From an uncultured Blastocatellia bacterium (GTDB lineage Bacteria > Acidobacteriota > Blastocatellia > HR10): a stretch of 64,000 nucleotides of DNA. The notes beneath the pieces are model-generated. The model saw only the letters and a list, made by a program, of their open reading frames with translations. It did not search any database and was not told where the DNA came from. The number at the start of each line of letters is the position of its first letter. The first letter of the stretch is position 1. The stretch is from the NCBI GenBank assembly GCA_937934295.1, contig CALHAI010000005.1, positions 119,272-183,271 of the forward strand. Reading direction: 5' to 3'. The position numbers and the translations under genes were made by a program. Below are positions 52,217 to 64,000 of this stretch, piece by piece.

Positions 52217-52228
52217 GCGAACGCCACT

Positions 52229-53104
52229 ATGGCTTCCCCCTCTCCGCAACTCCTCATCCTCACGGGCTTGAGCGGCTCGGGGAAGACCTCAGCGGTCAAG
52301 GCCTTCGAGGACCTGGGCTACTTCTGCGTGGATAATCTGCCGATCCATCTCCTCCCCCCTTTTGTCGAGCTGTGCGAGCGTTCCCTGGAGACGCTCAAAC
52401 GCGCGGTCATCGTCATCGACATTCGCGAGCGACAGTTCCTGCCGGACTTCCCTCGCCTGTATGAGGAGCTGCGGCGACAGGGGACGAATGTGAAGATCGT
52501 CTTCTTTGAGGCGAGCCCCGAGGTTCTGCTCCGCCGTTTCTCCGAGACGCGCCGTCCGCATCCGCTGGCCGATACGGAGACGGACCTCCCGACGGCCATC
52601 GCGCGCGAGCGAGAGTTGCTCGCGGAGATTCGCGCTCGCGCCGATCTGGTCATTGATACGTCCGAGCATACGGTCCACACGCTGCGCCGCCACGTGATCG
52701 AGCGCTTCGGCACGGCCGATGCGCTGCTGGAGATGACGGTCACGCTCCTGAGCTTCGGATTCAAACACGGCGTTCCGCCCGGATTGGATTTGCTCTTCGA
52801 CGTGCGCTTTCTCCCGAATCCCCACTTCGTGCCGGAGCTGCGGGAGCGGACCGGTCAAGACGCTGAAGTCATCGCCTTCATGCGCGCACAGCCGGATACT
52901 GCCGAGCTGATCGCCCACCTGGAGAATCTCCTCCGCTTCCTCCTGCCGCGCTATCAGCGCGAAGGCCGCAGCTACGTGACGATTGGAATTGGGTGCACGG
53001 GAGGCCGCCATCGCTCGGTGATGATCGTCGAGGAGCTGGCTCGCACGTTGCGGCGCGAGGGATACAAGATTCGCGTCGCGCATCGAGACGTGGACAAGCT
53101 CTGA
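52229..53104 (+). CDS. rapZ: RNase adapter protein RapZ (YhbJ) family
   Basis: LTGLSGSGKTSAVKAFEDLGYFCVDNLP and the C-terminal motif GCTGGRHRSV. Confidence 0.9.
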   Translation: MASPSPQLLILTGLSGSGKTSAVKAFEDLGYFCVDNLPIHLLPPFVELCERSLETLKRAVIVIDIRERQFLPDFPRLYEELRRQGTNVKIVFFEASPEVLLRRFSETRRPHPLADTETDLPTAIARERELLAEIRARADLVIDTSEHTVHTLRRHVIERFGTADALLEMTVTLLSFGFKHGVPPGLDLLFDVRFLPNPHFVPELRERTGQDAEVIAFMRAQPDTAELIAHLENLLRFLLPRYQREGRSYVTIGIGCTGGRHRSVMIVEELARTLRREGYKIRVAHRDVDKL

Positions 53105-53239
53105 GCGCGCCGCTCCCTTCGTTGAGGACGGAAACGCGCGCTGTGATGTACAATAGGAGAGCGCGCAGGAGGGAACGTGGCGCGCTGAGAAGGCGAAGGG
53201 GTTGCCCCAGGGGGCTCCCCGCCGTGAGAGGAGGCACCA

Positions 53240-53653
53240 ATGGGACGCATCGGAGGCGTCGTCATCACGCATGGGCAGTTGGCCACCGAGCTGGTGAACG
53301 CCGCCGAGATGATTGTCGGCGAGATCAGCCACATCACGGCCGTCTCCATCGGTTGGCATGACGATGTCGAGGTCGCGCGCGAGACGATCCACCAGGCGAT
53401 TGCGCGCGTCAACAGTGGGCGTGGCGTGCTCTTGCTGACGGATATGTTCGGCGGGACGCCGACCAATATCGCCGCCACCTTCTTGGGGGTCGAACCGGTG
53501 GAGATCGTCACCGGCGTCAATCTGCCCATGATCCTCAAGCTCGCCAATCAGGACCCGAACGACGATCTCCTCACGGTAGCGCGGAAGGTCAAAGAGCAGG
53601 GGCAGAAGAACATCTATCTGGCCAGCGAGATTCTCACGCCCACCAAACGTTAG
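53240..53653 (+). CDS. PTS EIIA component, mannose/fructose/sorbose family
   Basis: GVVITHGQLATELVNAAEMIVGE; the His of THG is the phosphorylation site. 137 aa. Confidence 0.8.
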   Translation: MGRIGGVVITHGQLATELVNAAEMIVGEISHITAVSIGWHDDVEVARETIHQAIARVNSGRGVLLLTDMFGGTPTNIAATFLGVEPVEIVTGVNLPMILKLANQDPNDDLLTVARKVKEQGQKNIYLASEILTPTKR

Positions 53654-53659
53654 CCGAGG

Positions 53660-53947
53660 ATGCAGCGACGAACCGTGCAAGTGATCAATCGTCTGGGACT
53701 CCACGCGCGAGCGGCCGCTAAGCTCGTGCATGTGGCTAACCGCTTCCAGAGCACGATCGCGCTCGCTCGGTGCGATAACGGGCAGACCGTAGATGCGAAG
53801 AGCATTCTCGGCGTCCTGCTGTTGGCCGCTTCCGCGGGGACGCGCCTAGACATCATCGCCTCAGGAGAGGACGAGGCGGAAGCAGTTGAGGCCATCTGCC
53901 GGTTGATCGAATCGAGATTCGGCGAGGAGGAAGGAGCGACATCGTGA
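53660..53947 (+). CDS. ptsH: phosphocarrier protein HPr
   Basis: VINRLGLHARAAAKLV (His15 region) and the Ser46-region KSILGVL. Confidence 0.85.
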   Translation: MQRRTVQVINRLGLHARAAAKLVHVANRFQSTIALARCDNGQTVDAKSILGVLLLAASAGTRLDIIASGEDEAEAVEAICRLIESRFGEEEGATS

Positions 53948-55812
53948 CGGTGAATCGTGCGACGCGTTCCGGGCTCGTCCTGCGCGGATTGGGGGTCTCG
54001 CCGGGAATCGGGCTGGGCCCAGCCGTGCCCCTGCCGTGGCGCGGGCGTTTGATCTTTCGACGACCGCTCGCCCCCCAGGAGATCGAAGCGGAGGTGGCGC
54101 GGTTCCACGCAGCCGTGAACATCGCTCGCGAACAGCTTCAAGCGCTGCGACAGCGCATGGAGCAAGCCTTGGGAATGGAACACGCCTACATCCTGGACGC
54201 ACAACGATTGATGTTGGAAGATGTGGGCATCCTCGGCGAGATCGAGACGCTCATCCGCACAAGCGCGATCAATGCGGAATGGGCCGTGAAGTTGGTCACC
54301 GATCGTATCCTGGCCATCTACGCGGAGATCAAGGATGCGTATTTGCGCGAGCGCGGGAGCGACATCGAGGATGTCGCCCACCGGTTGCTCACGGCGCTTG
54401 CCGGAGATCGCACCTCGTGCGCCTTTCCGAAAGGCGCAGTCCTCGTGGGCGAAACTCTTCCGCCGAGCCTCCTTGGAGAACTCGACCCGCAGCGCGTCGC
54501 CGGTCTGGTCATCGGCACAGGGGGATGGACCTCACACGCGGCCATTCTCGCGCGCGGCTTGGGCATTCCGGCCGTCTCCGGCATTCACGGTGCGCTCGCC
54601 CTTATCGAAGACCAAGCGCTCCTTCTCGTGGATGGGACTCAAGGGCTCGTCTTCGTGCACCCAGCGCCGGAGGTCATTCAACGATACGAGGAGCAGAAGA
54701 AGGAGCGCGAACGCCGCTGGCACCTTCTGCGCGAACGCGCACCGCTGCCGACGATGACGCGCGATGGCGTGCCGATCACCGTTCGCGCCAACATCGAGCG
54801 GCTCTCGGAACTGGAGGACGCTCGGCACTTCGGCGCGTGTGGCATCGGACTGCTGCGCACGGAATTCCTCTTCCTGCAGGCGGCCCCGGAGTTGCCCTCA
54901 GAAGAGGTGCAATGGCAGGCGTATCGCCAAGTGGCTGAAGCCGCCGGGCCCGAGGGCGCCGTTGTTCGCACGGTGGATTGGGATGAGAATCAGATGGCGG
55001 CGCTTGGCAGCCTGCAGGCGTTCCACGATGAACACCTGGCGACGACGGGGATGGGTGATCGGGAACCATGGATCCCCGAACGCAATCCCGCGCTCGGTCT
55101 TCGCGCCATTCGCTTCTCGCTTTGCAGGCCGCAGGTCTTGAAGACGCAACTGCGCGCCATCGTGCGCGCCGCGGCCTTCGGGAATCTCCGCATCGTCCTG
55201 CCGCTCATCACGAGTTTGGAGGAAGTGTACGAAGTGCGTCGCCAGCTCGATGCCGTGTGTCAGGAGCTGCGCGCCGAAGGGGTCGAGGTTCCCTATCGCA
55301 TCCCATTGGGCGTGATGATTGAGACGCCAGCGGCTGTATGGCTTGCGGAAGAACTCGCGGCGGCGGCCGATTTCCTGAGTCTTGGGACGAACGATCTCAT
55401 CCAGTACGTCCTGGCGGTAGATCGCGACAACGATCGCGTCGCGCATCTCTACGATCCGTTCCACCCAGCTGTGCTGCGCGCCGTGAATCACGTCATGCGC
55501 GTGGCCGAACGTGCGGGCCGCGCTCTTGAAGTCTGTGGCGAGATGGCCGCGCATCCGCTCCATGTGCTCGTGCTGCTTGGTCTGGGAGCCCGCGTCCTGA
55601 GCATGCGCCCGCGTGCTATCCCCTTCATCCGGGATCTCATTCGACGCTGCCAGTTGGCGCCTGTGCGCGACCTCGTACAGAGGGCGCTCACGGCCTCGCG
55701 CGGCTATGAGGTGCGGCAGCTCCTGCTTCGAGGTTTTGAGGAGATGCGCCTGGAAGTTCTCGACGAGGCGCTGCTGAACGGGAGCGCTCCGCCCCTTCGA
55801 AACGCTCGATGA
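53944..55812 (+). CDS. ptsI: phosphoenolpyruvate--protein phosphotransferase (Enzyme I)
   Basis: Phospho-His region GGWTSHAAILARGLGIPAV and the PEP-utilising C-terminal domain. Confidence 0.9.
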   Translation: MTVNRATRSGLVLRGLGVSPGIGLGPAVPLPWRGRLIFRRPLAPQEIEAEVARFHAAVNIAREQLQALRQRMEQALGMEHAYILDAQRLMLEDVGILGEIETLIRTSAINAEWAVKLVTDRILAIYAEIKDAYLRERGSDIEDVAHRLLTALAGDRTSCAFPKGAVLVGETLPPSLLGELDPQRVAGLVIGTGGWTSHAAILARGLGIPAVSGIHGALALIEDQALLLVDGTQGLVFVHPAPEVIQRYEEQKKERERRWHLLRERAPLPTMTRDGVPITVRANIERLSELEDARHFGACGIGLLRTEFLFLQAAPELPSEEVQWQAYRQVAEAAGPEGAVVRTVDWDENQMAALGSLQAFHDEHLATTGMGDREPWIPERNPALGLRAIRFSLCRPQVLKTQLRAIVRAAAFGNLRIVLPLITSLEEVYEVRRQLDAVCQELRAEGVEVPYRIPLGVMIETPAAVWLAEELAAAADFLSLGTNDLIQYVLAVDRDNDRVAHLYDPFHPAVLRAVNHVMRVAERAGRALEVCGEMAAHPLHVLVLLGLGARVLSMRPRAIPFIRDLIRRCQLAPVRDLVQRALTASRGYEVRQLLLRGFEEMRLEVLDEALLNGSAPPLRNAR

Positions 55813-55822
55813 GATTCCGTGT

Positions 55823-57127
55823 ATGCGCCTCGGAGATCGAAGCGAGGAGCCACGATCCGCTCGCCTGACAAGAGGCGCCGAGGCACCGATCCGCATCGCG
55901 CGCGTCCTCTCCCGACTGAACATCGGCGGACCTTCACGGCACGTCATCCTGCTGACGGCTGGACTCAACGACGAGTGCTTCCGTTCCACACTCATCGTCG
56001 GCCGCGAGAATGCCCGCGAAGGGCATCTCTTTGAGAAGGCGCGCGCGCACGGCGTGGAACCGATCCGGCTCGCCTCACTGCAGCGCGACGTGCACCCCCT
56101 GGATGACGGGCGAGCGTTCCTTCATCTCTTTCGCCTCTTCCGCCGACTGCGTCCGCAGATCGTTCACACCCACGCCTCGAAGGCCGGAGCCTTAGGCCGA
56201 CTCGCCGCCCGATGCGCTGGCGTCCCAATCGTCGTGCACACGTTTCATGGGCATACGTTCCATTCGTACTTCCATCCGCTTCTCTCCTCTCTCCTCCGCG
56301 CGCTCGAACGCACCCTGGCGCGCTGGACGACGCGCATCATCACGCTCAGTCCGACACTCAAAGAGGAATTGATTCGCTATCGGATCGCCCCGGCTGAGAA
56401 GATCGACGTCATCCCGCTCGGTTTGGAACTCGAGCACTTCGCCGAGAGCGATCGCTTTCGCGGCGAGCTCCGTCGCCAACTCGGTTTGGACGAAGCCATC
56501 CCCCTCGTCTGCTCGGTCGGTCGACTCGTGCCGGTGAAGAATCATATGCTGCTTCTTCAGGCCTTCGATCGAGTCCTGCAACACCGACCCGAGGCGCATC
56601 TCCTTCTGGTCGGAGACGGCGAACTGCGTCCTCGCCTTGAAGCGATGAGCGACCGCCCCCCTCTTCGCGGACATCTCTCGTTCCTCGGCTGGCGGGAGGA
56701 TCTGGAGCGCATCTACGCCGATGCGGATCTCGTCGTGAACAGCTCGCTCAACGAAGGAACGCCCGTCGCCGTGATCGAAGCCATGGCAGCGGCTCGGCCC
56801 GTCATCGCGACGGCGGTCGGGGGCGTGCCCGATCTCATTCGCCATGGGGAGACCGGATGGCTCGTCCCACCGATGGACCCGGAGGCGCTGGCCGCGCAGA
56901 TCCTCTATGTCCTCGACCATCCCGAGGAGGCCGCGCATGTCGCTCGGGCGGCACAAGCCTTCGCTCTCGCTCACTTCCGAGCTGACCAGCTCATCCAGCG
57001 TATGCGAGAACTGTATCTGACCCTCCTCGCATCGCGAGAAGGCGAGCACACGCCCCTTGTCCACGCATCCGATGACTCGCCCAGGACAAGTCGCACGATC
57101 TCACCGACTCGGCGAAGGCAATCCTGA
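55823..57127 (+). CDS. glycosyltransferase family 4 (GT-B fold)
   Basis: C-terminal E-x7-E-like motif region (NSSLNEGTPVAVIEAMAAARPVIAT), GGVPDLI. The start is approximate. Confidence 0.75.
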   Translation: MRLGDRSEEPRSARLTRGAEAPIRIARVLSRLNIGGPSRHVILLTAGLNDECFRSTLIVGRENAREGHLFEKARAHGVEPIRLASLQRDVHPLDDGRAFLHLFRLFRRLRPQIVHTHASKAGALGRLAARCAGVPIVVHTFHGHTFHSYFHPLLSSLLRALERTLARWTTRIITLSPTLKEELIRYRIAPAEKIDVIPLGLELEHFAESDRFRGELRRQLGLDEAIPLVCSVGRLVPVKNHMLLLQAFDRVLQHRPEAHLLLVGDGELRPRLEAMSDRPPLRGHLSFLGWREDLERIYADADLVVNSSLNEGTPVAVIEAMAAARPVIATAVGGVPDLIRHGETGWLVPPMDPEALAAQILYVLDHPEEAAHVARAAQAFALAHFRADQLIQRMRELYLTLLASREGEHTPLVHASDDSPRTSRTISPTRRRQS

Positions 57128-57973
57128 AGACTGGCCCTCGCATGAAGGACGACACCTTCCCCGAAGGAAATCTGTACTCGACAGAGAAGTGCTTTGTCGA
57201 GCGATCTCCAAGACTTGCCGCCTTTCTGGAAACAGCAGTATCTTCAGCTGTCAAGCCTTAACCGGCTCTGCCTCCCAAGCCGCGACCCCCACAGACAGCA
57301 GCACGCCAAGCCCCTCTCATCCCAACCCTCACGCATCTCTATCCCCCTCACCATCCTCTCCAACCTCCTGGCCTTCACCTCTTCGCCAAAAAGTTGCTTG
57401 AAGGCAGAAAAGAAACTCCTCCTCTCCACCCCCCCATAGCCAAGCCTCTCCTTCCACCCCAAGGGATCTTTTCCATATGCCCTGACCACTTCCTCCCTTT
57501 CCCCTCCACATCTTCCCCTCACCTTGGATCCCCACCTCTATCCCATTCCTCCCTCTCCCTAAGCCTGGAGCCCAGATCGGGGTCAGGCTGACTCGGGTAT
57601 CTTCAGGGAGAGGATGCTGTGGGGCAAAGAGGGAGATAAGCTGGCTCAAACCCCTTGCTAACCCCTCATGCTGCCGATACGGCCCCCCCTCCGGATCCCC
57701 CAAAATCACATCAGGCCGTGAGGATAGCGAAAGAGACGCCCATTCTTTTTCTCCCCTTGCCGGTCTGAGAGGCGTCCAACGGCTAAGAGGATTTCCCCCG
57801 TCGGACATGATGCTCGCTGTACTCGTTCCAGTTCCTTTCAGGCTTTCTCCCCTTTATTGTATCCCCTCGTCTTCATCCTGACCAAGACCAGGCCGCCGCA
57901 AGCCCCTGGCTTGAGCCACGGGGATAAGGCGGCCGGTTTTCAATAGGTGGCCGCGGGATGGTATACTTGGCTT

Positions 57974-58069
57974 ATGCCGCAGTACACAGCGGAATGCAAG
58001 TTGAACAACGTCTCAAAGAAGCCTCTTTCCCAGCGCATCCACGCCTGTGAGTGTGGCGTGGAGATGTAA
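57974..58069 (+). pseudogene. decayed C-terminal remnant of an IS200/IS605-family TnpB (zinc-finger region), flanked by in-frame stops
   Basis: MPQYTAECKLNNVSKKPLSQRIHACECGVEM* resembles the TnpB hallmark K.LS.R...C..CG preceding DRD.NAA.NI (here CxC with one residue lost; the downstream frame reads RNLYLAFLA). An in-frame stop lies 30 nt upstream and the remainder of TnpB is absent. Confidence 0.35.
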
Positions 58070-58440
58070 CGCAATCTCTACTTGGCGTTTCTGGCGTGGT
58101 GCGTGAAGGAGAATGGTTTGCTCCACGCAGATCTGGCGCGCGAGCGTTGGTCGGGTGCGGCAGCGGCTCCTGCGGGCGGCGTGGAGCCGTGCCACCCAAC
58201 CTGCGAGTGCGAGGGCGTTTCGCCCTTCCTCCTTCGGGGTGTATCCCCGGAGTCGGAGCGGGTCGCCCGCGCAAGAGGGGATAGCCAAAACCGAGGTCCG
58301 GGATGGTGTAGCGGAGGTGCCGACCTCTGGCGAGAGCCCGGAAGAGGTTGCGGTGGTTCCCCTCAGAACCCCCCGGCTCGAGCCGTGGGGAGGTTCAGAC
58401 CCCAGCTGCAGGTTATGCAATACAGCACAGAGGAGCACAT

Positions 58441-58468
58441 CCCCCGCGCGAGGTGAATCGCGCGGGGG
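58441..58468. terminator. very stable GC hairpin CCCCCGCGCGA-GGTGAA-TCGCGCGGGGG 12 nt beyond the stop of the minus-strand gene at 58480 (terminator and/or IS-end hairpin)
   Basis: 11-bp perfect stem, 6-nt loop. No clear U-tract on either strand. Confidence 0.4.
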
Positions 58469-58479
58469 ACGAGTGGGCC

Positions 58480-59301
58480 TCACGGATGCGGCGTGTGGCA
58501 TTGCACGCAGTTCATCTTGGCCTTCACATTGTCCATGCCCTTATCGCCGTGACACGTGAGACAGGTGGCGAGGGATTCCGGCGGAACATAAATGCCCCGG
58601 AACTGTCCATCGGCCCATTGATTCAGAAGCTCGACGGCGCGAGCTGCGACATCCCCCGTGAGCCGGCCGCATCGCTCCTTTCGCTCAAGCGATGAGGCGC
58701 GGAATCCCGAATGTTCGCACCACTTGGTCACTGAGATGTGGCATAAGGGAGACCCCGAAGCGTTCTGCGGCAGTGGCTGCGTATACTTCTGGACGAAGAA
58801 CTGTCCGGTTTGGGCGTACTGATTGCTGATGTCCGAGGGCAGGAGCGCTTGCGTGTACCACCCCTGCAATTCGTGGATGAGCTGATCGGCCGTCTGCTTA
58901 TCGCACACGAGATTGATGGCTGCACAGGCGCCTAGGAGTGCCCCGCACGACCCACCCCATCCGACGACGCCACCATGTCCCCAGATCATCATCTCGGGCG
59001 GGATGAGCGTGTACGGGTATCCAACGGCCTCGCGCAGCGCGACGACGATCGCGCGAAACGCGCCATAGGCGCACCCGTAGCCCTTCTCCCAATACCCTTG
59101 GTGACCGAGCTTGCGCACGTACTCGGGATCGAGCTTCTTATAGGGCCATGGCCAGGGGGGAAGCTCCACCTGGGCTTTCCCCTCGCGGCCGATGAGGCTC
59201 ATTCCGACTACACCCGCCGCAGCACAGGCGGCACATTGGGTCGTCAGCGTCAGAAATTCCTTCCGCGTAAGTTTCCGCTTCATAGCGCTTCCCTCCATCA
59301 T
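58480..59301 (-). CDS. C_GCAxxG_C_C family redox protein with C-terminal dihaem c-type cytochrome extension (two CxxCH), exported
   Basis: Signal with Tat-like RKEFL motif followed by AACAAAGVVG. The region ...GYGCAYGAF...SCGALLGACAAINLVCDKQ... matches the C-x-GCAxxG-x-C-x-C family pattern. C-terminal CLTCH and CVQCH. Confidence 0.7.
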   Translation of the reverse strand: MMEGSAMKRKLTRKEFLTLTTQCAACAAAGVVGMSLIGREGKAQVELPPWPWPYKKLDPEYVRKLGHQGYWEKGYGCAYGAFRAIVVALREAVGYPYTLIPPEMMIWGHGGVVGWGGSCGALLGACAAINLVCDKQTADQLIHELQGWYTQALLPSDISNQYAQTGQFFVQKYTQPLPQNASGSPLCHISVTKWCEHSGFRASSLERKERCGRLTGDVAARAVELLNQWADGQFRGIYVPPESLATCLTCHGDKGMDNVKAKMNCVQCHTPHP

Positions 59302-59411
59302 GGCTTTCGCCTTACTTTATTAGCAAGTGGCGTGCCAAGACAAGCATTCTTGATTCTCCCAGAGTTAGCGCGCCGATGGCGCGGCCACCTGCTGAAAAAC
59401 GCAACAGGTCC

Positions 59412-59493
59412 GTTGAATTCCTCAACATGGCTAAGCGCGCCAAGCGCCACAACTTCCCACATTCACCGCCCACCTCGTGTTGAGGAATTCAAC
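59412..59493. promoter_or_regulatory. two copies of 15-bp palindrome GTTGA-attcc-TCAAC (second inverted: GTTGAggaatTCAAC), centres 67 bp apart, in divergent promoter region
   Basis: 59412-59426 and 59479-59493. The extended 16-nt match is TGTTGAGGAATTCAAC. Confidence 0.5.
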
Positions 59494-59631
59494 AGTTCGT
59501 GCCGAAGGACACTCCCATCGGCCAGGTGCGGGTGCACATCCCCCTGATGATCAACGACTTCCCGAGCATTGGGAGAAGAATGCGGTACGGCACTCCGATT
59601 GCATATATCTTCGGCTGAGGGAGGACATCCG

Positions 59632-60651
59632 ATGAAGATGAAGAGCGCCGACAAGTGGCTGAGAGAGCGACCCACAGAAGCGATGGCCTCTTCCCCCCTC
59701 TCGGTCGTCTCCGAAGGCGAACGCGCTTCTTCTCCGCTCAAATGCGTGTGGATGCTCGCTGGAGTCGTGGATTACAAGCTCTGTGATAGGGATTATGAAT
59801 GTGAGCAGTGCCCATTCGACCGCGCCCTTCGGGAATGGGCGGCGATTGGTGAACGAGAAGCTCGACGACCCCTTGCCGAACAAGCGAAGGAAGACCGCAC
59901 CAAGGATCATGGGCTCGTCGGATGCCCGCTCTGCAGAGAGCTTGAAGGCTGCTCTCAGGAGCCCATCTCGGCACGCGAGCGTGTCCGCGTCAAAAGGGGA
60001 TTCCGCATAGCGGAGGCGCTCTTCTACCATCCGGCGCATCTCTGGGTGCGTGTCGAGTGGCGAGGGCAGGTGCGCATCGGATTGGACGATTTCGGGCAGT
60101 GGCTTCTCGGGCGCATCTATCACGTGAGATTCCCCGATGTCGGCGCGCGGGTGATCGCTGGACATCCGTGCGGCGAGCTGGCATATCACGCGGGAGAGAT
60201 CGCCCTGCCCGCGCCGGTGACGGGGATGATCCACCAACTCAACGAGAAGCTCATGCGGTACCCCTCTCTTGTCAACCACGATCCCTATGGCGAAGGATGG
60301 ATGATGATCTTTCAACCGGAGCACCTGCATGAGGATTTGCAGCAGCTGCTGTACGGGGAGCAAGCGCTGGCATGGTATGCACGAGAGATCGCGAGGTTGC
60401 ATCAGGAGATCCACATCGCTTTGTGCGCCATGGGAACGTCCCCGGAAGCCCTCGCCGGCCGCACGCTCCAAGACGGGGGCGTTCCCGTTTCTCCCTCTTC
60501 TGAGTGCGAGCTCATGGCGTCCACCACGAGGAAGTCGCTCACCGAGCGGCTCAACCCCACGTGGTGGGCAGAGGTGATCGCGCAGTTTTTGCAACCGCAA
60601 GCCGGGCGCTCCAGAAGTGCGCCCGAGAGGGAAACTCGGCACAGGAGGTGA
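59632..60651 (+). CDS. GcvH-fold (glycine-cleavage H / lipoyl-like hybrid barrel) protein with N-terminal Cys-rich region; lipoyl-lysine absent
   Basis: RBS GAGGGAGG before the ATG at 59632. N-terminal CVWMLAGVVDYKLCDRDYECEQC and GCPLCRELEGC. The core HLWVRVEW...IGLDDFGQ...VRFPDVGARV...PVTGMIHQLNEKL...NHDPYGEGWMMIF matches the GcvH pattern, but the lysine position is H/A. The track start at 59569 is probably too early. Confidence 0.65.
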   Translation: MKMKSADKWLRERPTEAMASSPLSVVSEGERASSPLKCVWMLAGVVDYKLCDRDYECEQCPFDRALREWAAIGEREARRPLAEQAKEDRTKDHGLVGCPLCRELEGCSQEPISARERVRVKRGFRIAEALFYHPAHLWVRVEWRGQVRIGLDDFGQWLLGRIYHVRFPDVGARVIAGHPCGELAYHAGEIALPAPVTGMIHQLNEKLMRYPSLVNHDPYGEGWMMIFQPEHLHEDLQQLLYGEQALAWYAREIARLHQEIHIALCAMGTSPEALAGRTLQDGGVPVSPSSECELMASTTRKSLTERLNPTWWAEVIAQFLQPQAGRSRSAPERETRHRR

Positions 60652-60654
60652 GCT

Positions 60655-61359
60655 ATGGTCGCCTTCTTCGTCATTCTCACGATCATCGGGTTCATCCTCG
60701 TGGACTCCTTCGTCCAATGGGTCGAAGCCCGACAGGGGCTGACCTTGAGGCGAACGGCGCCGCGTCCCGAGCTTGTCCCGGCACTCGCGTTGGAAACCAT
60801 CTCCGTTCCCGCCGGCCTCTTCCTGGACGAGGGCCACACGTGGGTCCGCCTGGAGCCGAGCGGACGGACGCTGATCGGCATGGATGAGTTCGTGCGTCGA
60901 GCGATCGGTCGCGTGGACGCCGTGGAGTTGCCGAACGTCGGCTCCGTCGTTCGACGCGGCGATCCGCTGTTCACCGTCACACAAAATGGCCGACGGGCCG
61001 TTTTCCGCGCACCGCTCACTGGCGTCGTGAGCGCCGTCAACGAGAACCTCGCGCGCCTTCCTGAAACGGGACGGATGGACCCATATGAAGAAGGATGGGT
61101 GTGCGCACTGAAGCCGAAAGACCTGGCGGTGCATCTGCGTCATCTTTTCATCGCCGAGGAAGCACGGGCATGGCTTCGGTGGGAGACCGAACGCTTCAAG
61201 GAGTTCTTGACTCGGTGTCCGATGCCGCAGTCGGCTCTCGGACAGGTCTTGCAAGACGGCGGGCAGTGGGCCGAAGGCATTTTGGAGATGCTCGATGAAG
61301 CCGGCTGGGAGGAATTCGCGCGAACGTTCCTGCAAAGCCCGCGTTCTTCGGCAGAATAA
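60655..61359 (+). CDS. membrane-anchored GcvH-fold protein (second paralogue), lipoyl-lysine absent
   Basis: Starts 3 nt after the upstream stop. N-terminal TM helix MVAFFVILTIIGFILV. Core HTWVRLEP...IGMDEFV...VELPNVGSVV...PLTGVVSAVNENL...RMDPYEEGWVCAL. Confidence 0.65.
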   Translation: MVAFFVILTIIGFILVDSFVQWVEARQGLTLRRTAPRPELVPALALETISVPAGLFLDEGHTWVRLEPSGRTLIGMDEFVRRAIGRVDAVELPNVGSVVRRGDPLFTVTQNGRRAVFRAPLTGVVSAVNENLARLPETGRMDPYEEGWVCALKPKDLAVHLRHLFIAEEARAWLRWETERFKEFLTRCPMPQSALGQVLQDGGQWAEGILEMLDEAGWEEFARTFLQSPRSSAE

Positions 61360-61640
61360 GGAGGGCGGTCAAAGGCGCGGCTTCTGGCATTGGCGGCGGA
61401 GCGCGCGCCGACCGCTCCCTTTGTGTCCGAAATCAGTCACTGGCGGGCTCTGGTCCGTTGCACCTAGGAAGCGGCTCTCGATGGGGGATTTGCCCCACCT
61501 CAGCTTCTCGACAGCAGGAGCGATGCCATCGTGGTGCTGTAAGTGCTTGAAGTTAAGCCTTTCGGAAGCGGGCCTGCGAAAGGCACGAGGAGCTGGCCTG
61601 TGGCATGGAAATTGCATCCCTACGAAAAGGGGGGGCGCGT

Positions 61641-62447
61641 ATGGGCGACAAAAGGGGCCTTCTCTTCGACGCGACCTTGTGCATCGGATGCGGGGCGTGC
61701 TACGAGGCGTGCAAAGAGCGAAACCAGCTCCCACGGACGGCGGCACACTTTCTGGATGATCGGCTTTCGGATCAAACCTACACGGTTGTGAAGAGACGTG
61801 GAGGGCGATTCGTCCGCCAGCTCTGTATGCATTGCGAGGTTCCGACGTGTGTTTCCGTGTGTCCGGTCGGCGCGCTGGAGAAGACGGCCACAGGTCCGGT
61901 CATCTATCACGAGGCGCGCTGCATCGGATGCCGGTATTGCATGCTCGCGTGTCCCTTCGGCATCCCGAAGTACGAGTGGAGGAAGATCTTGCCTCGCGTC
62001 CGAAAGTGCGATCTCTGTGCGGATCGCCTCGCGGCCGGGCGCCCTCCGGCGTGCGCTGAGGTCTGCCCGACGGGAGCGACACGATTTGGCGATCGCCAGG
62101 CGCTGATCGAAGAAGCGCGCGCGCGAATCCGCACCCATCCTCAAAAGTATGTGCCGAGGATTTACGGCCTGGAGGAAGTCGGCGGTACATCGGTGCTGCT
62201 CCTCTCGGACATCCCCTTCGAGCGCCTCGGCTATCGGACCGATCTGCTGTCGGAGCCCTTGCCACTGTTGACGTGGCAGGTCTTGCAGAAGATCCCCAAT
62301 TTCGTCGCTGTCGGCAGCGTGTTGTTGGGAGGCATTTGGTGGATCACGAATCGGCGTCGAGAGGTCCAACTCCGAGAGCGCCAGCAGCGGGAGGTTCGCG
62401 AGCCCTCGGCGCCTGAATCCGCCGATCCATCGCATGAAGAGCCATGA
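61641..62447 (+). CDS. 4x[4Fe-4S] ferredoxin-type iron-sulfur subunit with C-terminal TM anchor (FdnH/HybA/PsrB-like), no N-terminal signal peptide
   Basis: AAGGGGGGG before the ATG at 61641. Four Cys clusters (CIGCGACYEAC, CMHCEVPTCVSVCP, CIGCRYCMLACP, CDLCADRL...CAEVCP). C-terminal hydrophobic helix FVAVGSVLLGGIWWI. Confidence 0.85.
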   Translation: MGDKRGLLFDATLCIGCGACYEACKERNQLPRTAAHFLDDRLSDQTYTVVKRRGGRFVRQLCMHCEVPTCVSVCPVGALEKTATGPVIYHEARCIGCRYCMLACPFGIPKYEWRKILPRVRKCDLCADRLAAGRPPACAEVCPTGATRFGDRQALIEEARARIRTHPQKYVPRIYGLEEVGGTSVLLLSDIPFERLGYRTDLLSEPLPLLTWQVLQKIPNFVAVGSVLLGGIWWITNRRREVQLRERQQREVREPSAPESADPSHEEP

Positions 62448-62487: not shown

Positions 62488-64000
62488 ATGATGCGCTGGA
62501 GCTTTCGCCGACCGGGTTTTTGGCAACTCGTATTTGCGCTCATCCTGGGCGTTGGCCTCTATAGCACGGTCGTCCGGTTCACCGGCGGCCTGGGAGCGAG
62601 CACGGCCTTGAGCGATGCCTTCCCCTGGGGATTGTGGATCGGCTTCGATGTGCTCTGCGGAGTAGCCCTGGCAGCCGGGGGATTCACCCTCAGCGCCGTC
62701 GTCTACATCTTCAATGTCGAGCGGTTTCGACCGATCATTCGTCCGACGATCCTCACGGCGTTCCTCGGCTACGCGCTCGTCATCGTGGCCTTGCTCTTCG
62801 ACCTGGGACGCCCCTATCGCATCTGGCACCCATTGGTGATGTGGAACCCGCACTCGGTGATGTTCGAAGTGGCGTGGTGTGTCATGCTCTACACGACGGT
62901 GCTCGCGCTGGAATTCAGCCCGATGGTATTCGAACGCTTGAGGCTCGAGCGGCCGCTGCGAATCCTTCACGCGCTGACGGTGCCGCTGGTCATCCTCGGC
63001 GTCATCCTCTCGACGCTTCATCAGTCCTCGCTCGGATCGCTCTACTTGATTGTCCCGGAGAAACTGCATCCGCTCTGGTATTCGCCGCTTTTGCCCATCT
63101 TCTTCTTCATCTCGGCGATCGCGCTCGGTTGCGCGATGCCCATCTTCGAGTCATTTCTGAGCTATCGGGCATTCCGAAAACGGCTGGAGATTGAGCTGCT
63201 CGCCGATTTGGGGAAGGTGATCGTCGTCACATTGGCCGTATATCTGGTCCTGAAAATCCAGGACTTGGCCGGACGGGGCGTGCTCTCCCGCATTGTCGAA
63301 CCAACATACGAGGGGCGAATGTTCCTGGCCGAGATGCTGCTCGGCGTGATCGGTCCGATCCTGTTGCTCAGCCTCCGTCGCATTCGGACGGATCACTTCG
63401 GCCTCTTCGTCTCCGCCGTTCTGGTCGTTCTCGGTTTCATTATGAATCGGCTCAATGTGAGCATCACGGGGATGGAAGCGTCTTCCGGCGTGTCCTACTT
63501 CCCGAGCTGGACGGAGCTTTCGGTGACGCTGATGATCGTCGCCCTGGGGTTCGCGCTCTTTGGCGCGGCAGCGAAATATCTCCCCGTCTTCCCGGAGAAG
63601 GAGCGTCTTCCGGCACCCACCTTGGTGGAGCCTCCAGCGGTGGCTGTCCTGCGGCGACCGTGGATTGGCACGACGCCCCTGGTGTTGATCCTCGGCGGGC
63701 TCTTCTTCATCGGCGCCATGGGATCGGCCTATAGCGGCCTTCAGCATCGCGAACGAGCACTCGCCACCGCTCCGGCCAGCGAGGAGAGCGAACCCGAGAT
63801 CGCCGACGGCTTAGAGCGCTTTGAAGTCCCTCCGGACGTCACATTCCCTCAGGGAGAGGCCAGTCCCGGACCGGTTACATTCCGACACGCCTCGCACCTC
63901 AATTGGGAGAGGCCCAATTGCACGATCTGTCATCACGAGCCGTTCCGCATGTTGAAGGCATTCGGGAGCGTGACCGCATCGCCCGCCCGCGATTTGCATG
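62488..64000 (+). CDS. NrfD/PsrC/HybB-family polysulfide-reductase-type membrane subunit with extra C-terminal TM helices and a fused cytochrome c7/c3-like haem domain (partial; continues beyond window)
   Basis: Not in the ORF track because there is no stop in the window. Read in frame from ATG 62488: MMRWSFRRPGFWQLVFALILGVGLYSTVVRFTGGLGAS...NRLNVSITGMEAS... (8+ TM helices), then ...FEVPPDVTFPQGEASPGPVTFRHASHLNWERPNCTICHHEPF.... The last stretch matches the c7 pattern V.F.H..H......C..CH. Confidence 0.8.
   Translation, partial: MMRWSFRRPGFWQLVFALILGVGLYSTVVRFTGGLGASTALSDAFPWGLWIGFDVLCGVALAAGGFTLSAVVYIFNVERFRPIIRPTILTAFLGYALVIVALLFDLGRPYRIWHPLVMWNPHSVMFEVAWCVMLYTTVLALEFSPMVFERLRLERPLRILHALTVPLVILGVILSTLHQSSLGSLYLIVPEKLHPLWYSPLLPIFFFISAIALGCAMPIFESFLSYRAFRKRLEIELLADLGKVIVVTLAVYLVLKIQDLAGRGVLSRIVEPTYEGRMFLAEMLLGVIGPILLLSLRRIRTDHFGLFVSAVLVVLGFIMNRLNVSITGMEASSGVSYFPSWTELSVTLMIVALGFALFGAAAKYLPVFPEKERLPAPTLVEPPAVAVLRRPWIGTTPLVLILGGLFFIGAMGSAYSGLQHRERALATAPASEESEPEIADGLERFEVPPDVTFPQGEASPGPVTFRHASHLNWERPNCTICHHEPFRMLKAFGSVTASPARDLH

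What the first reader, a model, noticed from the sequence alone, without database searches (positions are those of the whole stretch)
62488..64000. NrfD-family membrane subunit with C-terminal cytochrome c7-like haem domain fusion
Reading the frame from ATG 62488 gives a continuous ORF to the window end with no stop (absent from the supplied ORF track). After the NrfD-type helices and two further predicted helices comes ...DVTFPQGEASPGPVTFRHASHLNWERPNCTICHHEPF..., which matches the triheme c7/c3 signature (V.FPH.AH......C..CHE). A covalent fusion of the quinone-binding NrfD module to a periplasmic small multihaem cytochrome would hard-wire quinol oxidation to a periplasmic haem wire. This is reminiscent of, but distinct from, ACIII ActC/ActA and Qrc arrangements.
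Basis: partly seen in the sequence, partly recalled or inferred. Interest (0 to 1): 0.55.

Follow-up and report, generated by a model that had tools for sequence, protein, structure and literature searches.

The report
Quinone-site membrane protein fused to trihaem cytochrome
The gene at the window's end is a real, widespread but unstudied fusion of a quinone-binding respiratory membrane subunit to a small three-haem cytochrome that faces the periplasm; it sits in a conserved gene cassette with its iron-sulfur partner and, in relatives, its own regulators.

Summary
ATG 62488 opens a 504-codon frame that runs to the window end. It encodes a HybB/HmcC-type NrfD protein with 10 transmembrane helices (TMHs), an 11th helix, an acidic linker, and the start of a c7-type cytochrome domain.

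The closest full-length relative (95% identical, 532 aa) adds 28 residues and two more CxxCH motifs. All 117 aligned relatives have exactly three CxxCH. Charge bias (117/117) and helix parity place the haem domain in the periplasm.

A HybA/HmcB-like protein with four [4Fe-4S] clusters is encoded directly upstream (80/80 loci). The four mutagenesis-validated HybB residues are invariant.

On a core tree the fusion defines one clade, found in Acidobacteriota and several other phyla. Sister lineages lack c7. One encodes it as a separate secreted protein, one has two tandem c7 domains, and one fuses all three parts.

The module belongs to a conserved cassette: GcvH-like proteins, FeS, NrfD±c7, a histidine kinase, a σ54 regulator and an archaemetzincin. 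The window shows σ54-type promoters and a palindromic upstream site.

I found no publication describing the fusion. The most likely function is a compact menaquinol:periplasmic-cytochrome oxidoreductase. Direction is unproven. One puzzle remains: the FeS subunit has no export signal anywhere in the family. Verdict: a new variant of a known kind, of moderate interest.

The parts
62488..64000 (+). NrfD-c7 fusion gene: the first 504 of about 532 codons, cut by the window end
   Evidence: Open frame. NrfD Pfam domain aa 40-328. 95% identical over 100% of its length to full-length P0001.
62518..63582 (+). HybB/HmcC-type 10-helix quinone-interacting core (TMH1 aa 11-31 to TMH10 aa 341-365). Includes the HQSS motif at 63019-63030.
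   Evidence: AF2 helices. Best NCBIfam matches are HmcC (354 bits) and HybB (312 bits). HybB R89/Y99/E148/H184 correspond to R85/Y95/E142/H178 and are invariant in 118/118. Best fold match is ActC, TM 0.64.
63673..63741 (+). Extra 11th transmembrane helix (aa 396-418) that carries the C-terminus back to the periplasm
   Evidence: AF2 helix 395-427. Mean Kyte-Doolittle hydropathy 1.73 (minimum 1.22) across 117 sequences. Coordinates.
63742..63837 (+). Acidic linker (aa 419-450) between TMH11 and the haem domain
   Evidence: Mean D+E 4.65 against K+R 2.63 in this segment across the family. Sequence.
63838..64000 (+). N-terminal part of the c7-type trihaem domain: two distal His (63886-63897), the first CxxCH (63919-63933), and a D-L-H at the very end as a candidate sixth ligand
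   Evidence: The homologous region of P0001 passes PF14522 and TIGR04257 and aligns to all four c7 domains of GSU1996, PDB 3OV0, E=7e-28.
61641..62447 (+). HybA/HmcB-like iron-sulfur partner: 268 aa, 16 Cys in four cluster motifs, C-terminal TM anchor (62292-62345), no signal peptide
   Evidence: Fer4_11 and related Pfam hits. HmcB 262 bits and HybA 215 bits, aligned from about profile position 35. Cys motifs and TMH. Start revised from 61605 to 61641 because the conserved sigma54 element overlaps 61605. Found directly upstream of NrfD in 80/80 loci.
61601..61616 (+). Sigma54-type -24/-12 element (TGGCATGGAAATTGCA) upstream of the FeS/NrfD-c7 genes
   Evidence: One mismatch to the consensus. 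Conserved in L001 and L002.
60655..61359 (+). GcvH-like protein 2: N-terminal TM helix, no lipoyl-lysine
   Evidence: GCV_H Pfam E=1.8e-17. Gly at the lipoyl-Lys column.
59632..60651 (+). GcvH-like protein 1: N-terminal Cys4 motif CVWM..YKLCDRDYECEQC, no lipoyl-lysine. The start is uncertain; the mechanical ORF begins at 59569.
   Evidence: GCV_H Pfam E=1.5e-22. The motif is conserved in at least 21 loci, and the lipoyl-Lys is absent.
59412..59493 (.). Two copies of the palindrome GTTGA-N5-TCAAC (59412-59426 and 59479-59493) in the divergent intergenic region; a probable enhancer-binding-protein site
   Evidence: 2 matches against 0.01 expected per 64 kb. Present upstream of the operon in L001-L004. 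18 of 22 occurrences in 1.26 Mb of related loci lie in the 4.5-kb zone upstream of NrfD.
59588..59603 (+). Sigma54-type element (CGGCACTCCGATTGCA) upstream of GcvH-like 1
   Evidence: Also aligned in L001.
59322..59337 (-). Perfect sigma54 -24/-12 element (TGGCACGCCACTTGCT), 21 nt upstream of the split-Soret gene
   Evidence: The only zero-mismatch site in the window. A counterpart exists in L001.
58480..59301 (-). Split-Soret cytochrome c homologue: C_GCAxxG_C_C domain, two C-terminal CxxCH, TRKEFL-type signal. A candidate co-regulated periplasmic partner in this lineage only.
   Evidence: PF09719. NF047622 200 bits, below the cutoff of 400. PDB 1H21 E=1e-44. CxxCH at aa 247 and 265. Present only in the window and L001.

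Best explanation
The gene encodes the membrane subunit of a compact two-protein, quinone-coupled electron-transfer complex of the HybAB/HmcBC/QrcCD lineage. In this version the periplasmic cytochrome partner has been reduced to a trihaem c7 domain and fused to the NrfD subunit.

The 10-helix core binds menaquinone or menaquinol near the periplasmic face and carries a HybB-type proton path to the cytoplasm. The upstream tail-anchored protein with four [4Fe-4S] clusters docks on the periplasmic face. An 11th helix and an acidic linker tether the c7 domain beside it.

The proposed electron path is quinol, then the FeS chain, then the three haems, then soluble periplasmic acceptors. In this genome a likely acceptor is the divergently transcribed, co-regulated split-Soret cytochrome. 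Expression is probably switched on by the sigma54 two-component system that relatives encode immediately downstream.

Shown: the architecture, the topology, conservation of cofactor ligands and HybB functional residues, and gene linkage. Inferred: the FeS-to-haem contact, the direction of electron flow, and the physiological acceptor.
For: - Domain architecture and its conservation.
- 11 helices in the predicted structure. The literature rule that 10-helix NrfD-likes have both termini on the N-side (PMC8076601), plus positive-inside in 117/117, puts c7 in the periplasm, where c-type haem attachment occurs (established knowledge).
- Three CxxCH and two distal His are invariant. The tail is homologous to GSU1996 c7 domains.
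- HybB residues R89, Y99, E148 and H184, shown by mutagenesis to matter (Lubek 2019, as cited in PMC8076601), are invariant.
- The FeS gene lies directly upstream in 80/80 loci, with 16 Cys in four cluster motifs.
- Natural variants argue that FeS, NrfD and c7 work together: a split form with a secreted stand-alone c7 in the same operon (L028), a triple fusion (P0048), and tandem c7 domains (L024).
- The fusion forms one clade with only 3 state changes across 84 loci, so it has been maintained by selection.
- Some relatives sit beside periplasmic reductases or multihaem clusters: an NrfA-like plus Nap-like pair in L004, and Rieske/cyt b, CbcL-like and ImcH-like genes in L003. That fits a quinol-dehydrogenase role.
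- Published separate-gene analogues exist: C-tail FeS plus a HybB-like subunit plus an octahaem cytochrome (bioRxiv 10.1101/2023.11.02.564894).
Against: - There are no experimental data for any member, and every sequence sampled is from a MAG or metagenome.
- The characterised closest relatives (Hyd-2 HybB and QrcD) work mainly as quinone reductases, and the conserved N-side proton path suits that direction (PMC6303296).
- c7 haems are typically lower in potential than menaquinone (own knowledge), so quinol to c7 would be uphill unless it is pulled by acceptors or driven by the proton-motive force.
- The FeS subunit lacks any export signal family-wide, and no Tat-signal partner is conserved, so assembly on the periplasmic side is unexplained.
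- Most cassettes (60/84) have no c7, and few have any nearby cytochrome, so the core module's partner is unknown.
- The window itself shows only one of the three haem motifs.
Confidence: 0.4

Rival explanations
1. Same complex, opposite direction. It would be a Qrc/Hyd-2-like cytochrome c:menaquinone oxidoreductase. Low-potential periplasmic donors reduce the c7 haems, electrons pass through the FeS chain to menaquinone, and the protons for quinone reduction come from the cytoplasm. The step would then be electrogenic and energy-conserving.
For: The nearest characterised relatives, HybB and QrcD, are quinone reductases, and QrcABCD was shown to be electrogenic (PMC6303296). The residues of the HybB N-side proton pathway are invariant here. 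c7/c3-family haems are usually low-potential (own knowledge), so the flow from c7 to menaquinone is downhill. The best NCBIfam similarities are to HmcC, HybB and QrcD rather than NrfD.
Against: No periplasmic hydrogenase, formate dehydrogenase or other obvious low-potential donor appears among the annotated genes of L001-L004, and the wider survey did not screen for them. Some relatives neighbour periplasmic reductases and EET-type quinol oxidases instead. HmcC's own direction is unsettled.
Confidence: 0.3
2. The FeS-NrfD(±c7) unit is primarily a sensory input device. It would read the redox state of the quinone pool or periplasm and pass that state to the co-operonic HAMP histidine kinase and sigma54 regulator, rather than carrying bulk respiratory flux.
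For: The kinase gene follows NrfD directly in 62/74 loci, the sigma54 regulator in 56/67 and an archaemetzincin in 54/66, across several phyla and in both fused and unfused forms. Most cassettes contain no catalytic subunit or cytochrome. Sigma54 promoters and a conserved palindrome sit in front of the cassette itself, which suggests autoregulation. Co-sensing by membrane transport or respiratory proteins with kinases is a known principle (own knowledge).
Against: Adjacency of a two-component system to its target operon is the ordinary arrangement and needs no sensory coupling. Full conservation of the HybB proton-pathway and quinone-site residues, and of a four-cluster wire plus three haems, is more than a sensor would seem to need. 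Holophagales loci keep FeS-NrfD-c7-HK-RR but drop the GcvH-like genes. No physical link to the kinase has been shown.
Confidence: 0.15
3. The apparent fusion in this window is an artefact or a decaying gene. In this genome the true gene would be interrupted just beyond the window, or the haem domain would be non-functional.
For: The window ends before the stop codon, and the source contig could not be recovered. Two small groups inside the fused clade have lost the c7 domain (L016/L023 and L025/L029).
Against: The window protein is 95% identical over its full 504 residues to an intact 532-aa protein. It retains every invariant residue visible so far: HxxH, the first CxxCH and the D-x-H. Seven further relatives at 80-87% identity are all intact. 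The locus is syntenic with the HR10-like contig.
Confidence: 0.03

Closest known systems
Hmc complex of Desulfovibrio vulgaris (HmcA 16-haem cytochrome, HmcB FeS, HmcC NrfD-like)
   Same: Best NCBIfam matches for both subunits: HmcC 354 bits and HmcB 262 bits. Shares the tail-anchored four-cluster FeS protein, the 10-helix cofactor-less quinone subunit, and a c3-superfamily multihaem cytochrome on the periplasmic side. A regulator gene lies downstream of the operon (rrf1/rrf2).
   Different: Scores fall below the equivalog cutoffs. The cytochrome is 3 haems, not 16, and is fused to the membrane subunit through an extra helix. No HmcD/E/F (cytochrome b plus cytoplasmic HdrD-like) genes are present. 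The FeS protein has no signal peptide. GcvH-like genes are present instead.
E. coli hydrogenase-2 HybA/HybB
   Same: 35% identity to HybB, with the functionally validated residues R89, Y99, E148 and H184 and most proposed quinone and proton-path residues conserved. The FeS partner is HybA-like with a C-tail anchor.
   Different: No hydrogenase genes in the four annotated loci. HybB has no 11th helix or haem domain. HybA has a Tat signal, which is absent here. The database label 'Ni/Fe-hydrogenase cytochrome b subunit' is a misnomer for this protein.
QrcABCD menaquinone reductase of sulfate reducers
   Same: An NrfD-like 10-helix subunit, an FeS subunit and a c3-family multihaem cytochrome (QrcA) on the periplasmic side. 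Its electrogenic mechanism is the best experimental model (PMC6303296). QrcC also lacks its own signal peptide (own knowledge).
   Different: QrcD similarity is weak (170 bits against a cutoff of 570). There is no QrcB molybdopterin-like subunit, which is the presumed Tat carrier for QrcC. The cytochrome is a separate hexahaem subunit.
Alternative complex III (ActA pentahaem, ActB, ActC/ActF)
   Same: ActC is the best solved-structure match (6BTM_C, E=8e-10, TM 0.64). ActA is a membrane-tethered multihaem cytochrome sitting next to the FeS domain, so the geometry is analogous.
   Different: About 16-19% identity. No ActB Mo-like domain, no second NrfD subunit and no ActD/E. In ACIII the haem subunit is a separate protein anchored by its own N-terminal helix.
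Three-gene module of C-tail ferredoxin, HybB-like quinol oxidase and octahaem cytochrome c, and the signal-less C-tail FeS plus HybB-like plus FeFe-hydrogenase module (bioRxiv 10.1101/2023.11.02.564894)
   Same: The same FeS plus HybB-like pair, associated with periplasmic c-type cytochromes. It also gives a precedent for a signal-less C-tail FeS protein that must hitchhike through Tat.
   Different: There the cytochromes are separate genes and belong to a different family (octahaem Otr-type). Here c7 is fused, and no Tat-signal partner is conserved in the cassette.
Geobacter c7-type cytochromes (PpcA; GSU1996 'nanowire' dodecahaem)
   Same: The tail aligns to all four GSU1996 domains (3OV0, E=7e-28) and passes TIGR04257. 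It shares the H-x2-H, three CxxCH and a D-M/H sixth-ligand position.
   Different: Those are soluble periplasmic proteins. Here a single c7 unit is membrane-tethered to a quinone-interacting subunit.

Membership tests
NrfD/PsrC family (PF03916) | Pfam score above the gathering threshold | tested here: met
   85.9 bits against 25.8 for the window fragment; 90.4 bits for P0001.
NrfD/PsrC family (PF03916) | Cofactor-less polytopic fold of two four-helix bundles, structurally like PsrC/ActC | tested here: met
   The AF2 model (pLDDT 79) matches ActC and ActF of four ACIII structures at TM 0.55-0.65.
10-helix subgroup (HybB/HmcC/QrcD/DsrP/ActC) | Two extra helices flanking the 8-helix core, with both termini on the cytoplasmic side | tested here: met
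   Helices 1 and 10 flank the Pfam core. K+R bias is inside in 117/117. The rule is from PMC8076601.
HybB (hydrogenase-2 membrane subunit, NF008133) | Equivalog score of at least 450 bits | tested here: not met
   311.9 bits.
HybB (hydrogenase-2 membrane subunit, NF008133) | Encoded with [NiFe] hydrogenase subunits | tested here: not met
   No hydrogenase genes among the called genes of the four annotated loci L001-L004. The 80 survey loci were not screened for hydrogenase genes.
HybB (hydrogenase-2 membrane subunit, NF008133) | Functional residues R89, Y99, E148 and H184 | tested here: met
   Invariant in 118/118 sequences.
HmcC (NF045714) | Equivalog score of at least 550 bits, and co-encoded HmcA/D/E/F | tested here: not met
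   353.9 bits. No 16-haem cytochrome, NarI-like or HdrD-like genes in the window locus or L001.
QrcD (NF041784) | Equivalog score of at least 570 bits, and a QrcB partner | tested here: not met
   170.2 bits. No molybdopterin-like gene in the cassette.
Alternative complex III ActC | Co-encoded ActA/ActB/ActD-F, and ActC-level sequence similarity | tested here: not met
   Fold-level similarity only, at 16-19% identity. No Act genes in the neighbourhood.
Cytochrome c7 / c7-type trihaem domain (PF14522, TIGR04257) | Three CxxCH motifs plus distal His ligands in about 70 residues, scoring above threshold | tested here: inconclusive
   The window itself shows HxxH, one CxxCH and a terminal D-L-H, and Pfam makes no call on the fragment. 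The 95%-identical P0001 passes both models, and 117/117 relatives have exactly three CxxCH.
NrfCD/HybAB-type dimeric redox module | An adjacent NrfC/HybA-type ferredoxin with four cubane motifs | tested here: met
   16 Cys in four motifs. Fer4_11, HmcB and HybA matches. Directly upstream in 80/80 loci.
NrfCD/HybAB-type dimeric redox module | A Tat signal peptide on the FeS subunit, or on a co-encoded partner | tested here: not met
   No room for a signal: in-frame stops lie as close as 12 codons upstream of cluster 1, and the start consensus is M-x-K-x-[IL]L-x-D-x-T-x-C. No Tat-signal partner is conserved in the cassette.
Split-Soret cytochrome c (NF047622), neighbour gene | Equivalog score of at least 400 bits; C_GCAxxG_C_C domain plus two C-terminal haem motifs | tested here: inconclusive
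   199.6 bits, below the cutoff. However, PDB 1H21 gives E=1e-44 over 220 residues, PF09719 is present, and there are two CxxCH. It is a homologue, not a proven equivalog.
Glycine-cleavage H protein (neighbour genes) | A lipoylated lysine in the E-S-V-K-A motif | tested here: not met
   Gly or Ala occupies that column in the window proteins, and Lys is absent in 100/104 cassette homologues. Scores are below the gcvH equivalog cutoff.

The most novel reading that the evidence does not exclude
The conserved cassette may be a previously unrecognised functional unit. It comprises non-lipoylated GcvH-like proteins, a signal-less HybA-like FeS protein, a HybB-like subunit (±c7), a HAMP kinase, a sigma54 regulator and an archaemetzincin.

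In this reading the quinone-coupled FeS/haem module acts as the redox-sensing input of the two-component system. It would report quinone-pool or periplasmic redox state instead of, or as well as, carrying respiratory flux. Its FeS subunit would reach the periplasm by a route that needs neither its own signal peptide nor a co-encoded Tat-signal partner.
Probability: 0.15. Interest if true: 0.75.

Novelty: new variant of a known kind. Interest (0 to 1): 0.45.

Why it matters
NrfD-like subunits are the quinone-coupling element of many anaerobic respiratory complexes. How they couple electron transfer to the proton-motive force is still debated, and only Qrc has been measured.

A natural two-polypeptide version, and in P0048 a single-polypeptide version, contains the quinone site, the FeS wire and a haem entry or exit port. 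That would be the simplest known member of the class. It would be an attractive minimal system for reconstitution and structural work.

The module is common in Acidobacteriota and other abundant but poorly cultured soil and sediment phyla. It may therefore be a significant unrecognised link between the menaquinone pool and periplasmic or extracellular redox chemistry. It is also currently mislabelled in databases as a hydrogenase cytochrome b subunit.

The signal-less periplasmic FeS subunit and the tightly linked two-component system raise separate questions about Tat hitchhiking and about redox sensing.

Tried and rejected
- **Source contig.** Exact 44-mer searches for the window's last bases in the genome and metagenome collections found nothing. 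The window's own stop codon stays unknown, and P0001 (95% identical) is the proxy.
- **Pfam on the fragment.** It does not detect the c7 domain in the truncated window sequence; the full-length relatives were needed.
- **PDB sequence search.** It finds only the c7 part. The NrfD part needed a fold search.
- **AFDB search.** The afdb50 fold library was unavailable.
- **Tail-only profile search.** Against 1.84 billion representatives it was dominated by multi-c7 repeat proteins and fragments, so it did not give a clean count of fusions.
- **Strict sigma54 consensus.** It failed in L002 and L003. Direct alignment was needed to see the conserved GG-N10-GC element. The exact palindrome occurs in only 14/70 loci, so it is clade-specific.
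- **Small ORF.** A conserved small ORF in the GcvH2-FeS gap was rejected: the 48-aa ORF of L002 has no counterpart in the window.
- **Rfam.** The scan of 55-64 kb found nothing credible.
- **Literature.** Eight full-text searches found no description of an NrfD-c7 fusion or of this cassette. Duarte et al. 2021 (BBA), the most relevant review, is not held.
- **Cultured hosts.** The cluster look-up found only MAG and metagenome members.
- **Second structure job.** A model of the triple fusion was not run, because model coordinates are not returned and cluster-haem distances could not have been measured.
- **Cytoplasmic FeS subunit with inverted NrfD, as in SoeABC.** Rejected. It would put the c-type haem domain in the cytoplasm, and it contradicts the charge bias.
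- **GcvH-like proteins as lipoate carriers, as in sHdr-LbpA.** Rejected, because the lysine is absent.
Full report

Yes. Translating 62488-64000 (+) gives 504 codons without a stop. ATG 62488 has a GGAGAGGTGG ribosome-binding site upstream and lies 40 nt after the stop of the upstream gene.

Pfam assigns residues 40-328 to NrfD (PF03916, 85.9 bits against a cutoff of 25.8). HxxH is at aa 467-470 and CTICH at aa 478-482.

The truncated fragment alone does not reach any cytochrome model, but the relatives settle the matter. Of the 120 best database homologues, 116 carry PF03916 plus PF14522 (Cytochrome_C7), and most are about 525-535 aa. The closest, P0001, is 95% identical over all 504 residues. 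It continues for 28 more residues that hold two further CxxCH motifs. P0001 passes PF14522 (40.9 bits against 24.8) and TIGR04257, the c7-type trihaem domain (55.3 bits against 40).

In an alignment of 117 relatives, the three CxxCH motifs and two upstream histidines are invariant, and every sequence has exactly three CxxCH. The tail aligns with all four c7 domains of the Geobacter dodecahaem GSU1996 (3OV0, E=7e-28). The family consensus R-D-M-H before the second CxxCH offers Met (at the column aligned with a Met in each GSU1996 domain) or His as the sixth ligand. The window ends on the corresponding D-L-H.

I could not recover the window's own terminus. Exact searches in the genome and metagenome collections returned nothing.

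**2. Topology**

An AlphaFold2 model of P0001 (mean pLDDT 79, pTM 0.73) has 11 long helices followed by a small domain.

The literature states that 10-helix NrfD-likes (HybB, HmcC, QrcD, DsrP, ActC) have both termini on the cytoplasmic N-side, whereas 8-helix PsrC has both on the P-side (PMC8076601). An 11th helix therefore delivers the C-terminal domain to the periplasm.

Using the model's helix boundaries on all 117 sequences:
- The predicted cytoplasmic loops hold more K+R than the periplasmic ones in 117/117 proteins (15.3 against 5.1, excluding the tail).
- TMH11 is hydrophobic in all of them (mean Kyte-Doolittle 1.73).
- The segment after it is acidic.

This fits the requirement that c-type haem attachment is periplasmic (established knowledge).

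**3. What kind of NrfD protein is it?**

By NCBIfam it is closest to HmcC (354 bits), HybB (312) and QrcD (170). All three fall below the equivalog cutoffs, so it is a relative of these and not a member of any.

Foldseek's best solved matches are the ActC and ActF subunits of alternative complex III (TM about 0.65, 16-19% identity).

I aligned it with genuine E. coli HybB, taken from the MG1655 record. Identity is 35%. The four residues whose mutation impairs Hyd-2 (R89, Y99, E148, H184; Lubek 2019 as cited in PMC8076601) are invariant in all 118 sequences, as R85, Y95, E142 and H178 in the window protein. Most of the other proposed quinone-site and proton-pathway residues are conserved too. 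The core therefore looks like a working quinone-coupled, proton-conducting subunit.

**4. The partner subunit**

Directly upstream (61641-62447) is a 268-aa protein with 16 cysteines in four cubane motifs and a C-terminal TM anchor. It is closest to HmcB (262 bits) and HybA (215 bits). It occupies this position in 80/80 related loci.

Its start should be ATG 61641, not 61605. A conserved sigma54-type element overlaps 61605, and the homologues begin at the equivalent of 61641.

The family has no signal peptide. The HmcB and HybA profiles align only from about position 35, whereas E. coli HybA has a Tat signal. In every locus where the FeS N-terminus is covered, the gene begins 8-12 residues before its first cluster, and in-frame stops lie as close as 12 codons upstream.

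Even so, its C-tail helix has more K+R in the 15 residues after it than in the 15 before in 68/79 loci. Natural FeS-NrfD fusions (P0121-P0124) and an FeS-NrfD-c7 fusion (P0048) join it to the cytoplasmic N-terminus of NrfD. It must therefore sit on the periplasmic side with the haem domain.

Signal-less C-tail FeS proteins that hitchhike on a Tat-signal partner are known or proposed: FdnH, and a HybA-like protein with an FeFe hydrogenase (bioRxiv 10.1101/2023.11.02.564894). Here no such partner is conserved. This remains unexplained.

**5. Variation and evolution of the fusion**

I analysed the 80 best loci from species-representative genomes together with four loci fetched earlier. Of these 84, 24 have an NrfD ORF with at least three CxxCH, and 60 end at about 390-440 aa with none. 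Core identity to P0001 is similar in both groups, at 59-69% among the 80 survey loci.

On a neighbour-joining tree of the NrfD core, the fused forms make one clade containing two small unfused groups. Parsimony needs only 3 state changes. The clade spans Acidobacteriota (Blastocatellia, Holophagales, Thermoanaerobaculia), Myxococcota, KSB1, Latescibacterota, Eisenbacteria and others.

Informative variants:
- **L028 (Methylomirabilota).** A homologous 138-aa c7 with its own Sec signal peptide is encoded directly upstream of FeS and an unfused NrfD. This is a natural split form.
- **L024.** Two tandem c7 domains, giving six haems.
- **P0048.** All three parts are fused into one polypeptide.
- **L025 and L029.** These lost c7 but carry a 10-haem cytochrome gene between the kinase and regulator genes.

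Together these argue that c7 is a working partner of the FeS-NrfD pair.

**6. The wider cassette and regulation**

The window cuts the locus, but the syntenic HR10-like contig continues with a HAMP histidine kinase, a sigma54-dependent response regulator and an archaemetzincin. The same order recurs in distant relatives. Across the surveyed loci with enough flanking sequence:

| Feature | Loci |
|---|---|
| Kinase directly after NrfD | 62/74 |
| Sigma54 regulator downstream | 56/67 |
| Archaemetzincin (Peptidase_M54) downstream | 54/66 |
| GcvH-like gene within the cassette | 48/60 |

The kinase and regulator are generic AtoS/AtoC- or ZraS/ZraR-like proteins, and none meets an equivalog cutoff.

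In the window there are three sigma54-type elements, each correctly oriented. The only perfect match in 64 kb is at 59322-59337 (-), 21 nt before the split-Soret gene. The others are at 59588-59603 (+), before GcvH-like 1, and at 61601-61616 (+), before FeS. The last is conserved in L001 and L002.

The divergent intergenic region holds two copies of GTTGA-N5-TCAAC, against 0.01 expected per 64 kb. The same palindrome lies upstream of the operon in L001-L004. In 1.26 Mb of related loci, 18 of 22 occurrences fall in the zone upstream of NrfD, though only 14/70 loci carry the exact motif. It is a plausible binding site for the sigma54 activator.

The two GcvH-like proteins are not lipoate carriers. 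The lipoyl-lysine column holds Lys in only 4 of 104 cassette homologues. Type 1 carries a conserved N-terminal Cys4 motif, and type 2 has an N-terminal TM helix.

The divergently transcribed gene 58480-59301 (-) is a split-Soret cytochrome c homologue (1H21, E=1e-44). It has a TRKEFL-type signal and two haem motifs. It occurs only in the window and its closest relative. It is therefore a lineage-specific, probably co-regulated, candidate redox partner.

**7. Mechanism**

Best-supported reading (0.40): a compact menaquinol:periplasmic-cytochrome oxidoreductase. Electrons would run from quinol at the P-side site of the NrfD core, to the four-cluster chain of the FeS subunit, to the tethered c7 haems, and then to soluble acceptors. 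The sigma54 system would control expression.

The architecture, topology, ligand conservation and gene linkage are shown. The FeS-to-haem contact, the direction and the acceptor are inferred.

Contexts in some relatives favour a quinol-dehydrogenase role. These are NrfA-like and Nap-like genes in L004, and Rieske/cyt b, CbcL-like and ImcH-like genes in L003.

The main rival (0.30) is the reverse, Qrc/Hyd-2-like direction. Three points favour it:
- the identity of the closest characterised relatives;
- the conserved N-side proton path (PMC6303296);
- the usually low potentials of c7 haems (own knowledge).

A sensory role for the module, feeding the co-operonic kinase, is a less likely but more novel reading (0.15). 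An artefact or decaying gene is very unlikely (0.03).

**8. Comparison with what is known, and novelty**

The module works like HmcABC, QrcABCD, ActABC and the recently described trio of C-tail ferredoxin, HybB-like subunit and octahaem cytochrome. In all of these the cytochrome is a separate polypeptide. This protein fails the equivalog tests for HybB, HmcC and QrcD, and lacks their partner genes.

Eight full-text searches, the two open NrfD-family reviews and three further papers read in part gave no description of an NrfD-cytochrome fusion or of this cassette. One key review (Duarte 2021, BBA) could not be read.

Databases label these proteins "Ni/Fe-hydrogenase cytochrome b subunit" or "c(7)-type cytochrome triheme protein". 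Both labels are partial.

I rate this a new variant of a known kind: real, conserved and uncharacterised, but built from familiar parts with a predictable role. Interest is moderate at 0.45. It is raised somewhat by the signal-less periplasmic FeS subunit and by the cross-phylum cassette, whose GcvH-like proteins and dedicated two-component system are unexplained.

Noticed in passing
window 61641-62447; L001-L084: The HybA/HmcB-like FeS subunit has no Tat or Sec signal peptide in any related locus where its N-terminus is covered. In-frame stops lie as close as 12 codons before the first cluster. Topology logic and natural fusions nevertheless put it in the periplasm, and no Tat-signal carrier is conserved in the cassette.
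   Followed up: partly
window 59322-59337(-), 59588-59603(+), 61601-61616(+): Three sigma54-type -24/-12 elements, including the only perfect consensus match in the 64-kb window. Each is correctly placed upstream of a transcription unit of the locus: split-Soret, GcvH-like 1, and FeS/NrfD-c7.
   Followed up: partly
window 59412-59426 and 59479-59493; L001 6972-7075; L002 7164; L003 7354; L004 9786: The palindrome GTTGA-N5-TCAAC is repeated in the divergent intergenic region (0.01 expected per 64 kb) and found upstream of the operon in four relatives. It is probably the binding site of the sigma54-dependent regulator. The exact motif is present in only 14/70 surveyed loci.
   Followed up: partly
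window 58480-59301 (-): A split-Soret cytochrome c homologue (PDB 1H21, E=1e-44) with a C_GCAxxG_C_C domain, two C-terminal CxxCH and a TRKEFL (RK-type) twin-arginine-like signal. It is transcribed divergently from a perfect sigma54 promoter and occurs only here and in the HR10-like relative.
   Followed up: partly
window 59632-60651 and 60655-61359: Two paralogous GcvH-fold proteins that lack the lipoyl-lysine (absent in 100/104 cassette homologues). Type 1 has a conserved N-terminal Cys4 motif (CxWM..G.V.YKLCDR.Y.C..C), and type 2 has an N-terminal TM helix. Both window proteins share a C-terminal LQDGG motif. They are conserved in 48/60 cassettes, and their function is unknown.
   Followed up: partly
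L001 11595-15229 and equivalents in L002-L084: A HAMP histidine kinase, a sigma54 response regulator and an archaemetzincin (Peptidase_M54) follow the NrfD gene across several phyla (62/74, 56/67 and 54/66 loci). This holds whether or not c7 is fused.
   Followed up: partly
L028 1293-3790: A Methylomirabilota locus encodes the homologous c7 as a separate 138-aa protein with a Sec signal peptide, directly upstream of FeS and an unfused NrfD. It is a natural split version of the fusion.
   Followed up: yes
L024 9001-11040; P0048; P0121-P0124: Other architectures in the family: NrfD with two tandem c7 domains (6 haems), an FeS-NrfD-c7 single polypeptide (819 aa), and FeS-NrfD fusions without c7 (about 655 aa).
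   Followed up: partly
L025 12202-13551; L029 12323-13648: In two loci nested in the fused clade that have lost c7, a 10-haem cytochrome gene sits between the kinase and regulator genes of the cassette.
   Followed up: no
window 57128-58480: About 1.3 kb between a GT4 glycosyltransferase (55823-57127) and the split-Soret gene has no convincing ORF and no Rfam match. Both this stretch and the glycosyltransferase are absent from the syntenic HR10-like locus, where ptsI is followed directly by the split-Soret gene.
   Followed up: no
window 51254-55812: A PTS and regulatory gene block lies immediately upstream of the locus and is syntenic with L001. PtsI (53944-55812) was confirmed by Pfam in the window; HprK, RapZ, EIIA-Man and HPr are inferred from ORF sizes and order matching L001. 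It is probably unrelated to the finding.
   Followed up: no
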